Shown: in pieces, positions 4,501 to 44,700 of the stretch
Layout: each line of letters begins with the position of its first letter
Position numbering within the stretch: the first letter of the stretch is position 1
NCBI RefSeq assembly: GCF_009914755.1
Contig: NC_060928.1
Length of the DNA stretch: 64,000 bases
Direction: 5' to 3' (one strand)
DNA from: the human T2T-CHM13v2.0 reference genome, Homo sapiens
Made by a program: the position numbers and the translations under genes
Notes under the pieces: generated by a model
Databases searched by the model: none
What the model was told of the DNA's origin: nothing
What the model saw: only the letters and a program-made list of their open reading frames with translations

Positions 4501-5381
4501 TTACCATTCAGGACATAGGCATGGGCAAGGACTTCATGTCCAAAACACCAAAAGCAATGGCAACAAAAGACAAAATTGACAAATGGGATCTAATTAAACT
4601 AAAGAGCTTCTGCATAGCAAAAGAAACTACCATCAGAGTGAACAGGCAACCTACCACATTGGAGAAAATTTTCGCAACCTACTCATCTGACAAAGGGCTA
4701 ATATCCAGAATCTACAATGCACTCAAACAAATTTACAAGAAAAAAACAAACAACCCCATCAAAAAGTGGGCGAAGGACATGAACAGACACTTCTCAAAAG
4801 AAGACATTTATGCAGCCAAAAAACACATGAAAAAATGCTCATCATCACTGGCCGTCAGAGAAATGCAAATCAAAACCACTATGAGATATCATCTCACACC
4901 AGTTAGAATGGCAATCATTAAAAAGTCAGGAAACAACAGGTGCTGGAGAGGATGTGGAGAAATAGGAACACTTTGACACTGTTGGTGGGACTGTAAACTA
5001 GTTCAACCATTGTGGAAGTCAGTGTGGCGATTCCTCAGGGATCTAGAACTAGAAATACCATTTGACCCAGCCATCCCATTACTGGGTATATACCCAAATG
5101 ACTATAAATCATGCTGCTATAAAGACACATGCAGACGTATGTTTATTGCGGCATTATTCACAATACCAAAGACTTGGAACCAACCCAAATGTCCAACAAT
5201 GATAGACTGGATTAAGAAAATGTGGCACATATACACCATGGAATACTATGCAGCCATAAAAAATGATGAGTTCATATCCTTTGTAGGGACATGGATGAAA
5301 TTGGAAACCATCATTCTCAGTAAACTATCGCAAGAACAAAAAACCAAACACCGCATATTCTCACTCATAGGTGGGAATTGA
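1554..5381 (+). pseudogene. ORF2: L1 ORF2p (APE endonuclease, reverse transcriptase, C-terminal Cys domain); open for 1140 aa, then a premature stop
   Basis: [14 protein letters not shown] start; RT motif reads LADD instead of FADD; TGA at 4974-4976 inside the [17 protein letters not shown] knuckle; frame resumes to ...SLIGGN* at 5381. Confidence 0.97.
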
Positions 5382-5564
5382 ACAATGAGATCACATGGAC
5401 ACAGGAAGGGGAATATCACACTCTGGGGACTGTGGTGGGGTGGGGGGAGGGGGGAGGGATAGCACTGGGAGATATACCTAATGCTAGATGACGCGTTAGT
5501 GGGTGCAGCGCACCAGCATGGCACATGTACCCTAAAACTTAAAGTATAATAAAAAAAAAAAAAA

Positions 5565-5906
5565 TGATGAGTTCATGTCCTTTGTAGGGACATGGATGAA
5601 ATTGGAAATCATCATTCTCAGTAAACTATCACAAGAACAAAAAGCCAAACACCCGCATATTGTTACTCATAGGTGGGAATTGAACAATGAGAACACATGG
5701 ACACAGGAAGGGGAACATCATACTCTGGGGACTGTTTCGGGGTGGGGGAGGGGGAGGGATAGCTTTAGGAGATATACCTAATGCTAAATGATGAGTTAAT
5801 GGGTGCAGCACACCAGCATGGCACATGTATACATATGTAACTAACCTGCACATTGTGCACATGTACCCTAAAACTTAAAGTATAATAATAATAAAATAAA
5901 AAAAAA
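5565..5906 (+). mobile_element. 3' end of a second, slightly older L1PA (about L1PA3-4)
   Basis: TGATGAGTTCATGTCCTTTGTAGGG through the ORF2 end, 3'UTR (GCTAAATGATGAGTTAATGGG variant) and its own A-rich tail. Confidence 0.93.
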
Positions 5907-6131
5907 TTGTTTTGGAAAAAAACTAATATAATACTTAATTTCTCCACTACAGCTATACAGTAGCACATTTACAGCATTTCACAGTAGTATCTTGGAAAGT
6001 CATCTTATTGCCAGATACTATAATATTTAACTCTCTGATATTCGATTCCCATTACTTTTTTGTGTACATTCAAAAATTTTTAACCTGTATGCATTATCCA
6101 GCCAAAATATTAAATTAAAAAGTAGAAATTT

Positions 6132-40648: not shown

Positions 40649-41106
40649 TATTTAGTCAGTATGCTGCCAATAATCAGGGCCAGGTCCTGTGTGCTCTTGG
40701 GGCCATATGACCCACCCCTTCCACCTCTCTGAGGAAACATTAAAGATATGTCCAAGGGAAATCCTTTCCATCTCATGATTCTTTGAAATAATTACTTTAT
40801 AGCCAGTAACTTCCATCTTTTAAGCCCTTAAGACTTGCAGACTATTTCTATTTTCTCTCCTGCAAAAGGCCTCCCTGAGGTTAGGCATTATACAACCACT
40901 ATCTACTAGAAGGAATAGGTAATTTGATGAAGGGAGAAAATGCAGAGGAAAAACACTCACAGACTAATATCCCAGAATCAGATAACTACACCCAAGCTCA
41001 GTTAAGAATTCCTAGTTTTAAAAGAGACCAAACAACCTATTAATGGTCTACAATCAAGGTTTTAGTTTCCATATCTTCTTAAAAGGTATAACCTCAATAC
41101 AGTCTA

Positions 41107-41549
41107 CAGTAGTTTTCACTAATCCACAGGGGATATGTTCCAAGACTGAAACCAATAGTACCAAACCCTCTATATACTATATTTTTATCCCATATATATG
41201 TACCTATGATAAAGTTTGATTTATAAATTATGTACAGAAAAAGATTAACAATAATAATAAAATAATTATAACAATATATCGGCATGACTGCCTTTGCACT
41301 TTGGGGCCATTATTAAGTGAAATAAGGGCTACTTGAACACAAATATTGTGATACCGTGACAGTCAATCTCATAACTGAGACAGATACTAACGGTCTAATG
41401 GGCAATAGCGCATACAGTGTGGATGTACTAGACAAAGGGATGATTTCACACACCAGGTAGGATAGAGCAGGACTGCAGGAGATTGCGTTATACTACTCAG
41501 AAAGGAGTGCAATTTAAATCTTATGAATTGTTTATTTTTGGAATTTTTC
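41107..41549. mobile_element. MER44 (Tigger7-derived), left part
   Basis: TA|CAGTAG...ATCCACAGGGGATATGTTCCAAGAC start, running to GCAATTTAAATCTTATGAATTGTTTATTTTTGGAATTTTTC. Confidence 0.85.
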
Positions 41550-41776
41550 TTTTTTTTTCTTTTTTTTTATTATTATACTTTAAGTTTTAGGGTACATGTG
41601 CACATTGTGCAGGTTAGTTACATATGTATACATTTGCCATGCTGGTGTGCTGCACCCACTAACTCGTCATCTAGCATTAGGTATATCTCCTAATGCTATC
41701 CCTCCCCCGTCCCCCCACCCCACAACAGTCCCCAGAGTGTGATGTTCCCCTTCCTGTGTCCATGTGATCTCATTGT

Positions 41777-44700
41777 TCAATTCCCACCTATGAGTGAGAA
41801 TATGTGGTGTTTGGTTTTTTGTTCTTGCGATAGTTTACTGAGAATGATGATTTCCAATTTCATCCATGTCCCTACAAAGGACATGAACTCATCCTTTTTT
41901 ATGGCTGCATAATATTCCATGGTGTATATGTGCCACATTTTCTTAATCCAGTCTATCATTGTTGGACATTTGGGTTGGTTCCAAGTCTTTCCTATTGTGA
42001 ATAATGCCGCAATAAACATACGTGTGCATGTGTCTTTATAGCAGCATGATTTATAGTCCTTTGGGTATATACCCAGTAATGGGATGGCTGGGTCAAATGG
42101 TATTTCTAGTTCTAGATCCCTAAGGAATCGCCACACTGACTTCCACAATGGTTGAACTAGTTTACAGTCCCACCAACAGTGTCAAAGTGTTCCTATTTCT
42201 CCACATCCTCTCCAGCACCTGTTGTTTCCTGACTTTTTAATGATTGCCATTCTAACTGGGGTGAGATGGTATCTCATTGTGGTTTTGATTTGCATTTCTC
42301 TGATGGCCAGTGATGATGAGCATTTTTTCATGTGTTTTTTGGCTGCATAAATGTCTTCTTTTGAGAAGTGTCTGTTCATGTCCTTCGCCCACTTTTTGAA
42401 GGGGTTGTTTGTTTTTTTCTTGTAAATTTGTTTGAGTTCATTGTAGATTCTGGATATTAGCCCTTTGTCAGATGAGTAGGTTGCGAAAATTTTCTCCAAT
42501 TTTGTAGGTTGCCTGTTCACTCTGATGGTAGTTTCTTTTGCTGTGCAGAAGCTCTTTAGTTTATTTAGATCCCATTTGTCAATTTTGTCTTTTGTTGCCA
42601 TTGCTTTTGGTGTTTTAGACACGCCCACGTGCTTTTGGTGTTTTAGACATTGCCCACGCCTATGTCCTGAATGGTAATGCCTAGGTTTTCTTCTAGGGTT
42701 TTTATGGTTTTAGGTCTAAGGTTTAAGGCTTTAATCCATCCTGAATTGATTTTTGTATAAGGTGTAAGGAAGGGATCCAGTTTCAGCTTTCTACATATGG
42801 CTAGCCAGTTTTCCCAGCACCATTTATTAAATAGGGAATCCTTTCCCCATTTCTTGTTTTTCTCAGGTTTGTCAAAGATCAGATAGTTGAAGATATGCGG
42901 CGTTATTTCTGAGAGCTCTGTTCTGTTCCATTGATGTATATCTCTGTTTTGGTACCAGTACCATGCTGTTTTGGTTACTGTAGCCTTGTAATATAGTTTG
43001 AAGTCAGGTAGTGTGATGCCTCCAGCTTTGTTCTTTTGGCTTAGGATTGACTTGGCGATGCGGGCTCTTTTTTGGTTCCATATGAACTTTAAAGTAGTTT
43101 TTTCCAATTCTGTGAAGAAAGGCATTGGTAGCTTGATGGGGATGGCATTGAATCTGTAAATTACCTTGGGCAGTATGGCCATTTTCACGATATTGATTCT
43201 TCCTACCCATGAGCATGGAATGTTCTTCCATTTGTTTGTATCCTCTTTTATTTCATTGAGCGGCAGTTTGTAGTTCTCCTTGAAGAGGTCCTTCACATCC
43301 CTTGTAAGTTGGATTCCTAGGTATTTTATTCTCTTTGAAGCAATTGTGAATGGGAGTTCACTCATGATTTGGCTCTCTGTTTGTCTGTTGTTGGTGTATA
43401 GGAATGCTTGTGATTTTTGCACATTGATTTTGTATCCTGAGACTTTGCTGAAGTCGCTTATCAGCTTAAGGAGATTTTGGGCTGAGACAATGGGGTTTTC
43501 TAGATATACAATCATGTCATCTGCAAACAGGGACAATTTGACTTCCTCTTTTCCTAATTGAATACCCTTTATTTCCTTCTCCTGCCTGATTGCCCTGGCC
43601 AGAACTTCCAACACTATGTTGAATAGGAGTGGTGAGAGAGGGCATCCCTGTCTTGTGCCAGTTTTCAAAGGGAATGCTTCCAGTTTTTGCCCATTCAGTA
43701 TGATATTGGCTGTGGGTTTGTCATAGATAGCTCTTATTATTTTGAAATACGTCCCATCAATACCTAATTTATTGAGAGTTTTTAGCATGAAGGTTGTTGA
43801 ATTTTGTCAAAGGCCTTTTCTGCATCTATTGAGATAATCATGTGGTTTTTGTCTTTCGTTCTCTTTATATGCTGGATTACATTTATTGATTTGCGTATAT
43901 TGAACCAGCCTTGCATCCCAGGGATGAAGCCCACTTGATCATGGTGGATAAGCTTTTTGATGTGCTGCTGGATTCGTTTTGCCATTATTTTATTGAGGAT
44001 TTTTGCATCAATGTTCATCAAGGATATTGGTCTAAAATTCTCCTTTTCGGTTGTGTCTTTGCCTGGCTTTGGTATCAGAATGATGCTGGCCTCATAAAAT
44101 GAGTTAGGGAGGATTCCCTCTTTTTCTATTGATTGGAATAGTTTCAGAAGGAATGGTACCAGTTCCTCCTTGTACCTCTGGTAGAATTCAGTTGTGAATC
44201 CATCTGGTCCTGCACTCTTTTTGGTTGGTAAGCTATTGATTATTGCCACAATTTCAGATCCTGTTATTGGTCTATTCAGAGATTCAACTTCTTCCTGGTT
44301 TAGTCTTGGGAGAGTGTATGTGTCAAGTAATTTATCCATTTCTTCTACATTTTCTAGTTTATTTGCGTAGAGGTAGTATTCTCTGATGGTAGTTTGCATT
44401 TCTGTGGGATTGGTGGTGATATCCCCTTTATCATTTTTTATTGTGTCTATTTGATTCTTCTCTCTTTTATTCTTTATTAGTCTTGCTAGCAGTCTATCAA
44501 TTTTGTTGATCCTTTCAAAAAACCAGCTCCTGGATTCATTAATTTTTTGAAGGGTTTTTTGTGTCTCTATTTCCTTCAGTTCTGCTCTGATTTTAGTTAT
44601 TTCTTGCCTTCTGCTAGCTTTTGAATGTGTTTGCTCTTGCTTTTCTAATTCTTTTAATTGTGATGTTAGGGTGTCAATTTTGGATCTTTCCTGCTTTCTC

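What the first reader, a model, noticed from the sequence alone, without database searches (positions are those of the whole stretch)
4960..42200. Two inverted L1s share the same ORF2 nonsense mutation and other private variants
Seen: both copies read GGAACACTTTGACAC (TGA at 4974-4976 and 42184-42182), where the recalled consensus is CTTTTACAC. The stop cuts the CCHC knuckle needed for retrotransposition, so it is unlikely to be inherited from an autonomous parent. Other shared changes against the recalled consensus: GAAGGAAAGTTT (about 869/46302), ORF1 A>P (about 1041/46130), GTACACAAC (about 2342/44829), AAGGAGAAT (about 3134/44043), LPMP (about 4056/43132), INSGW (about 4437/42741) and W>L (about 4660/42499). 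These are interleaved with sites where the copies differ as subfamilies do ([12 protein letters not shown] vs [24 protein letters not shown] vs ACAATGAGATAC; GCG vs GAG). Inference: repeated short-tract gene conversion between the inverted arms. Alternatives are a trans-mobilised defective lineage or assembly cross-polishing.
Basis: partly seen in the sequence, partly recalled or inferred. Interest (0 to 1): 0.75.

Follow-up and report, generated by a model that had tools for sequence, protein, structure and literature searches.

The report
L1 mutations spread between neighbouring copies
Two old LINE-1 copies 37 kb apart share several rare single-base changes, and their shared stop codon recurs in at least 245 copies bunched into chromosome patches across unrelated subfamilies, which likely means that short gene conversions pass mutations between neighbouring copies over hundreds of kilobases, much farther than reported for Alu repeats.

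Summary
All eight shared changes are at the stated places in two independently inserted L1 copies (96.6% identical). 'Private' is only partly right. Four variants are rare (11, 13, 29 and 37 exact carriers genome-wide), and only these two copies combine them. LPMP is a common lineage allele (698). The stop (ORF2 L1141*) has 245 carriers against 10,952 for the other bases. Stop carriers are not a lineage (AU p 1e-60). They are bunched: 61 of 100 have another carrier within 1 Mb (uniform null 6.4), and the window lies in such a patch. In 66 copies, rare-allele sharing falls from about 1.1/kb under 200 kb to 0.16/kb between chromosomes (0 of 5,000 permutations). It is the same for direct and inverted pairs. 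Best reading: distance-dependent, very short-patch non-allelic gene conversion in a network of neighbouring L1s, of which this pair is one edge; inversion is incidental. Alleles reaching three or more neighbours are mostly A>C/T>G (6 of 9 against 12%; post hoc), a hint of biased repair. The stop is not fixed locally (1 of 7 independently picked copies). Apes, other haplotypes and reads could not be checked.

The parts
1..5562 (+). L1 copy A (young L1PA2-like; subfamily label recalled). Its first 429 bases lie upstream of the window. ORF1 has stops at 801-803, 804-806 and 1263-1265; ORF2 (1554-5381) is open except for L1141*.
4974..4976 (+). Shared ORF2 stop in copy A (TGA; G at 4975 where about 96% of copies have T)
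5559..5906 (+). 3' remainder of an older truncated L1 that copy A interrupted. Its 5' piece (U, L061:9162-9571, upstream of the window) has TAA at the stop site, shares 4898C with copy B and 5134G with copy A.
41550..47602 (-). L1 copy B (L1PA2/3-like; label recalled), tail to tail with A; ORF2 is split into three frames
42182..42184 (-). Shared ORF2 stop in copy B
47603..47790 (-). Spliced 5' leader of copy B (5' transduction), matching chr10:43,245,398-543 at 97% and chr10:43,218,447-489 at 95%
47791..47800 (-). Target-site duplication of B, 5' copy (GAAAAATTCC)
41540..41549 (-). Target-site duplication of B, 3' copy
1041..1041 (+). Rare A/B-shared allele ORF1 A>P (B 46130); 13 carriers
2342..2342 (+). 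Rare A/B-shared allele (B 44829); 37 carriers
4437..4437 (+). Rare A/B-shared allele INSGW (B 42741); 11 carriers
4660..4660 (+). Rare A/B-shared allele W>L (B 42498); 29 carriers. The copies differ 3 bp away at 4657.
869..869 (+). A/B-shared allele (B 46302); absent from 3 of 3 full-length neighbours; not counted genome-wide
3134..3134 (+). A/B-shared allele (B 44043); absent from 3 of 3 full-length neighbours; not counted genome-wide
4056..4056 (+). LPMP allele (B 43122): a common, dispersed lineage marker (698 carriers), used here as the control
42260..42260 (-). 4898-equivalent A>C in B, shared with U and with L1s at chr4:130.16 and 129.87 Mb; 27 carriers genome-wide

Best explanation
The two copies inserted independently and share rare single-base changes with each other and with L1 neighbours up to about 500 kb away, most likely because very short non-allelic gene conversions copied them between nearby L1s after insertion. 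Shown: independent insertion, sharing beyond chance, decay with distance, no effect of orientation, and stop carriers that are scattered over the subfamily tree but bunched on chromosomes. Inferred: a break or nick in one L1 is occasionally repaired on a spatially close paralogue. Mismatches in the heteroduplex are then fixed one at a time or in patches of tens of bases, so single alleles cross subfamily backgrounds without homogenising them. Repeated hops would build the 0.1-1 Mb clusters and the multi-megabase patches of the stop allele. Less secure: repair would favour C:G at A>C/T>G sites, which would explain why the G allele is about 12 times as common as the A allele at the same site.
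For: Independent insertion: each copy keeps its own target-site duplication, and B has a spliced leader from chr10. Rare alleles: 11, 13, 29 and 37 carriers, with only A and B combining them. Distance decay in 66 copies and 1,902 non-CpG columns, with the stop and 4898 columns removed: 1.14/kb (<50 kb), 1.02 (50-200 kb), 0.45 (200-500 kb), 0.26 (0.5-1 Mb), 0.11-0.27 beyond, 0.16 between chromosomes. For pairs under 500 kb, 0 of 5,000 permutations reach the observed value, and it holds without the A-B pair. Stop carriers: 61 of 100 within 1 Mb of another (uniform null 6.4, maximum 20; within-chromosome null 14.9, maximum 30). They are more clustered than A/C carriers of the same site (61 of 77 against 24 of 84 within 3 Mb, Fisher p 1e-10) and than the lineage allele LPMP (8 occupied 10-Mb bins against a rarefied mean of 19.7, minimum 13). 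Tree of 62 copies: 17 label changes (shuffled mean 19.1) and monophyly rejected at AU p 1.4e-60. Two other alleles repeat the pattern: 4730C 53 of 99 (null 6.0) and 4898C 9 of 25 with the window copies removed (null 0.4). Neighbours that share an allele differ in 3' UTR subfamily type. Known rates and GC bias of the process in human duplicates: bioRxiv 10.1101/135152.
Against: No ape orthologue, second haplotype or read was examined, so direction and timing of transfer are not shown. No tract with several co-converted rare sites was seen; shared sites can be bounded by differences only 17-21 bp apart, or 3 bp away, much shorter than the 250-bp mean in 10.1101/135152. The overall weak-to-strong bias of neighbour-shared alleles is not significant (18 against 10, p 0.44; A>C class p 0.06). 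The stop is not fixed in its patches: 1 G and 6 T among 7 readable of 8 fetched copies picked by other variants. The 66 copies are not a random sample (37 were picked for the stop). L1 density alone gives about 1.45 times clustering (LPMP 56 against 38.5).
Confidence: 0.8

Rival explanations
1. Recurrent mutation that is both site-specific and regional (for example a T>G/A>C process active in late-replicating domains) hits the same base in neighbouring copies independently.
For: Shared changes are single bases with no co-converted neighbours. The class enrichment A>C/T>G (6 of 9) resembles a mutational signature. The stop occurs in 34 separate groups at 5-Mb linkage.
Against: Different sites cluster in different regions (stop, 4730C and 4898C have largely distinct patches). 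A local frequency of roughly one in three needs a rate over 100 times the roughly 0.2% seen for T>A. Sharing decays over 200-500 kb for many allele classes. A and B also share G>T, G>C and A>G rarities.
Confidence: 0.08
2. The local template is RNA or cDNA from a neighbouring transcribed L1 (RNA-templated repair in cis) and not its chromosomal DNA.
For: It would also give short patches, independence of orientation and locality. cDNA-mediated conversion is described for yeast Ty and Tf2 (PMC6598467, part 2 read).
Against: Truncated, promoterless and old copies take part (L063, L065, L067, U). Nothing here shows transcription of donors.
Confidence: 0.06
3. A defective L1 lineage carrying the stop was mobilised in trans, and A and B descend from it.
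For: 245 carriers. A and B do share one true lineage allele (LPMP, 698) and some intermediate-frequency alleles (3590, 3788).
Against: Monophyly is rejected. Carriers span all 3' UTR types. 0 of 30 other stop carriers fetched have INSGW and 1 has W>L among those covering the sites. A lineage allele is dispersed while the stop is patchy. No third locus combines the rare alleles.
Confidence: 0.03
4. Assembly polishing copied bases between similar L1s.
For: Raw reads were not available here; young L1s are hard to map.
Against: A and B still differ at 159 sites. The alleles cross subfamilies and follow chromosome position over megabases, which mis-mapping by similarity would not do. Minority alleles gain rather than lose.
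Confidence: 0.03

Closest known systems
Gene conversion among neighbouring Alu elements (Aleshin and Zhi 2010, as summarised in PMC6598467 and PMC8230782; original not read)
   Same: Non-diagnostic mutations shared between nearby repeat copies, falling off with distance, giving mosaics of subfamily-diagnostic sites.
   Different: Reported range about 10 kb. Here L1 sharing stays about 6 times background to 200 kb and about 3 times to 500 kb, and single alleles occupy patches of several megabases.
Non-allelic gene conversion in human gene duplicates (Harpak et al., bioRxiv 10.1101/135152; abstract and passages read)
   Same: Same basic process; reported GC bias 67%, 2.5e-7 per base per generation.
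   Different: Mean tract 250 bp between duplicated genes. Here the patches look much shorter, the partners are dispersed retrotransposon copies 3-7% apart in sequence, and the hinted bias is toward one transversion class.
Spread of a motif across Drosophila miranda ISX helitrons by non-allelic conversion (as reviewed in PMC6598467)
   Same: One allele spreads across many dispersed transposon copies by conversion.
   Different: There it is selected for a function. Here a nonsense allele spreads through mostly dead copies in local patches, with no evident selection.
De novo gene-conversion candidates in LINEs (PMC13102968; passages read)
   Same: 44% of conversion candidates among de novo SNVs lie in LINEs.
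   Different: Candidates were defined by a matching paralogue anywhere; the passages seen give no distance effect and no spreading allele.

Membership tests
Non-allelic gene conversion between transposon copies | Derived alleles shared between paralogues beyond chance | tested here: met
Non-allelic gene conversion between transposon copies | Incongruence between the shared site and the element's own phylogeny | tested here: met
   (17 changes, AU p 1.4e-60)
Non-allelic gene conversion between transposon copies | Rate falls with physical distance | tested here: met
   (0 of 5,000 permutations)
Non-allelic gene conversion between transposon copies | Non-reciprocal transfer polarised by orthologues or population data | not testable with these tools
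   no ape or second human assembly is held; the supplements of PMC13192797 could not be read
Non-allelic gene conversion between transposon copies | Tracts that co-convert adjacent differences | tested here: inconclusive
   shared sites are single; bounds 17-287 bp. 4913G beside the stop in three young copies looked like hitchhiking but also occurs with T.
Non-allelic gene conversion between transposon copies | GC bias | tested here: inconclusive
   18 against 10, p 0.44; 6 of 9 multi-neighbour alleles A>C/T>G, p 2e-4, post hoc; at the stop site G 245, C about 130, A about 21
Trans-mobilised defective L1 lineage | Carriers form a clade with linked diagnostic variants | tested here: not met
Trans-mobilised defective L1 lineage | Carriers dispersed like other L1 insertions | tested here: not met
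Inversion by crossover between inverted L1s | Target-site duplications swapped between the two elements | tested here: not met
   each copy keeps a matching pair; an even number of inversions is not excluded
L1PA2/L1PA3 subfamily assignment | Match to subfamily consensus | not testable with these tools
   no repeat library is held; labels are recalled. A and B fall in the youngest starred clade and lack the roughly 135-bp 5' UTR segment seen in L062 and L064.

The most novel reading that the evidence does not exclude
Young human L1s form chromosome-local conversion networks in which A>C/T>G alleles are driven: short-patch repair of A:G mispairs in ectopic heteroduplex (a MUTYH-like activity, recalled, untested) favours C:G. 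Such alleles then sweep from copy to copy over megabases like a local gene drive. One of them, ORF2 L1141*, has reached at least 2% of L1PA-type 3' ends in the genome and breaks the reading frame of each copy it reaches.
Probability: 0.3. Interest if true: 0.85.

Novelty: new variant of a known kind. Interest (0 to 1): 0.66.

Why it matters
L1 copies are widely treated as independently mutating after insertion, for dating, for lineage trees and for measuring neutral mutation rates. If alleles hop between neighbours over hundreds of kilobases, shared variants are not always ancestry, and some recurrent 'mutations' in LINEs are conversions. Because thousands of near-identical copies tile every chromosome, allele patches would give a sequence record of which loci meet during germline repair, and a direct measure of repair bias for each mismatch class. 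A nonsense allele that spreads this way would also be a passive route by which L1 copies are inactivated.

Tried and rejected
Inverted-repeat-specific conversion: rejected, direct 0.73 against inverted 0.66 shared alleles per kb (41 and 28 pairs under 500 kb). Net inversion between the arms: target-site duplications are not swapped. Local fixation of the stop: rejected, 1 of 7. Hitchhiking of 4913G with the stop: weakened and not claimed. Finding B's source element to read its alleles: the chr10 site and nine paralogous sites are all empty of L1 (10 of 10). An L1-endonuclease or PRDM9 target as the cause of drive: the stop site reads TTTT/A, but the other spreading sites share no motif by eye; not tested further. 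A recalled link to a 'LINE mutagenic process' in Seplyarskiy et al. 2021: the terms L1PA and gene conversion are absent from both versions searched. An unbiased contiguous sample around the window and a full-length background set were not obtained, so 5' allele frequencies rest on exact-match counts, local frequency rests on small samples, and 869 and 3134 are uncounted. Ten literature searches found no paper describing megabase-scale patches of L1 alleles. The library lacks most subscription papers, and the supplements of PMC13192797 (2,267 aligned L1s) could not be read and may bear on this.
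Full report
Observation. Copy A (window 1-5562, +; its 5' 429 bases lie upstream) and copy B (41550-47602, -) align over 5,552 bases at 96.56%. 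Both read TTTGACAC, with TGA at 4974-4976 and 42184-42182. The stop is ORF2 codon 1141. It is the only stop in A's ORF2 and falls inside the C-terminal Cys/His knuckle (knuckle function recalled). A's ORF1 has three stops and B's ORF2 is split over three frames, so neither copy is intact in any case. The seven other shared changes are all present and are absent from the three full-length L1 neighbours fetched.

Independent insertions. A sits inside an older truncated L1, with a matching A-rich duplication on both sides. B has its own 10-bp duplication and a spliced leader of about 190 bp that matches two pieces on chr10, 27 kb apart. So neither copy is a duplicate of the other, and there is no net inversion. 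B's source element was not found: 10 of 10 candidate sites are empty.

How private are the variants? Exact matches in the genome: INSGW 11, A>P 13, W>L 29, GTACAC 37, LPMP 698, stop 245, against 10,952 for T, A or C at the stop site, of which 151 are A or C (14 of the 100 listed are A). No locus outside the window has two of the four rare alleles. With 0.158 rare alleles per kb shared between chromosomes, five or six shared over 5.9 kb has P = 0.003 or 0.0004. LPMP is an ordinary lineage marker. Sites 869 and 3134 were not counted.

The stop is common but patchy. Of 103 carriers of a longer exact motif, the 100 listed fall on chr4 (27), chr3 (15), chr18 (14), chr2 (11), chr6 and chr14 (7 each), with none on chr7, 9, 13, 15-17 or 19-22 and at most 4 on X or Y. 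61 of 100 have another carrier within 1 Mb, against 6.4 under a uniform null and 14.9 with chromosome counts fixed. A/C carriers of the same site, with 16 rows in two segmental-duplication blocks dropped, are far less clustered: 24 of 84 against 61 of 77 within 3 Mb. Over the same span of chr1 and chr2, 28 stop carriers occupy 8 ten-megabase bins, while LPMP rarefied to 28 occupies 19.7 on average and never under 13 in 20,000 draws. LPMP itself is 1.45 times clustered, which gauges L1 density. Seven carriers, including A and B, lie in chr4:129.05-130.90 Mb. Within patches the allele is not fixed: 1 G and 6 T among 7 readable of 8 copies picked by other variants; with four more such copies seen earlier (L020, chr3:3.72 Mb and L063 with G, L064 with T) it is 4 of 11.

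Not a lineage. On a tree of 62 copies (window columns 4880-5499, stop column removed; 3 short rows, the short piece U and 4 duplicated rows left out), the 37 carriers need 17 changes (shuffled mean 19.1; 103 of 500 shuffles as low), and holding them together is rejected at AU p 1.4e-60. Carriers cover every 3' UTR type in the sample.

A network of neighbours. In 66 copies (70 minus 4 segmental duplicates; 37 picked for the stop, 26 chr1 T-carriers, 3 others), with the stop and 4898 columns removed, rare non-CpG alleles are shared at 1.14 per kb under 50 kb, 1.02 at 50-200 kb, 0.45 at 200-500 kb, 0.26 at 0.5-1 Mb, 0.11-0.27 beyond and 0.16 between chromosomes. The value for pairs under 500 kb (0.70; 0.68 without A-B) was reached by 0 of 5,000 permutations. 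Direct and inverted pairs are alike. Locally, 4898C joins B, U, L064 (200 kb away) and L063 (500 kb away); 5134G joins A, U and L064. Genome-wide, 4898C (27 carriers) and 4730C (100 carriers) are again clustered: 9 of 25 with the window copies removed (null 0.4) and 53 of 99 (null 6.0). With about 9.3 singleton changes per kb per copy, a close pair shares roughly 5% of its private changes (rough inference).

Mechanism. Shown: sharing, distance decay, no orientation effect, phylogenetic incongruence. Inferred: ectopic repair on a spatially near paralogue with very short conversion patches. Shared sites are bounded by differences as close as 17-21 bp apart, and 4660 is shared while 4657 is not, though later mutation can shorten such bounds. 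Repeated hops would give the patches. Possible drive: at the stop site G is about 12 times A and about 2 times C, whereas singletons give T>G 36, T>A 36, T>C 86. Of 9 non-CpG alleles carried by three or more neighbours, 6 are A>C/T>G against 104 of 841 singletons (p 2e-4, post hoc; 2 of the 9 join copies of one subfamily type and may be lineage markers). The broader weak-to-strong test is not significant. A repair activity that removes A opposite G (MutY/MUTYH, recalled) would produce this bias; this is a hypothesis only.

Comparison with what is known. Reviews read in part (PMC6598467, parts 1-2 of 4; PMC8230782, passages) put conversion among neighbouring Alus at about 10 kb. Harpak et al. 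(10.1101/135152, abstract and passages) give 250-bp tracts and 67% GC bias in gene duplicates. PMC13102968 (passages) finds 44% of de novo conversion candidates in LINEs. PMC13192797 (passages; supplements unreadable) screened 2,267 full-length L1s for recombinants and removed 35, with no mention of local single-site sharing in the passages seen. PMC8232201, PMC5237266 and PMC7070026 (passages) added nothing specific. Ten searches found no account of megabase patches of L1 alleles, in a library that lacks most subscription journals. The process is a known kind; its reach, patchiness and possible class bias in L1 look like a new variant.

Verdict. The feature is real. Confidence in neighbour conversion is 0.8; the driven-allele reading is 0.3; interest is 0.66.

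Noticed in passing
window 47603-47790 (-): Copy B carries a spliced two-exon 5' transduction from chr10:43.22-43.25 Mb or a paralogue. The first piece has about 80% look-alikes in chr19 and chr7 clusters (likely KRAB zinc-finger 5' exons; label recalled). The second begins after an AG acceptor. The source L1 is absent at all 10 sites checked.
   Followed up: partly
L061:9162-9571 and window 5559-5906: Copy A inserted into an older truncated L1. That host and an L1 at chr4:130.78 Mb (L062) both have TAA at the stop site; they are 2 of only 14 listed A carriers and lie inside a G patch, so they may derive from TGA.
   Followed up: partly
window 41300-41549 and 47791-47900 (-): Copy B interrupts a sequence that looks like a Tigger/MER DNA transposon (recalled resemblance).
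   Followed up: no
window 42618-42650: Copy B has a short tandem duplication or rearrangement of about 20 extra bases in ORF2; copy A lacks about 30 bases near its 3' end (about 5520).
   Followed up: no
chr2:209.1-209.7 Mb (L017-L020): Four neighbours of four different 3' UTR types share three alleles (4202C, 4730C and the stop), each A>C or T>G: a denser conversion cluster than the window's.
   Followed up: partly
chr9:1.57-1.93 Mb, chr4:4.9-5.75 Mb, chr12:60.9-61.7 Mb: Clusters of 5-6 carriers of 4730C, not fetched.
   Followed up: no
chrX: At most 4 of 103 stop carriers lie on X or Y although X is L1-rich (recalled); this may bear on where in the germline the conversions occur.
   Followed up: no
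window 16880-21878, 37027-39459, 54277-57480: Older L1 pieces at 65-85% identity to A and B; too diverged or not covering the shared sites.
   Followed up: no
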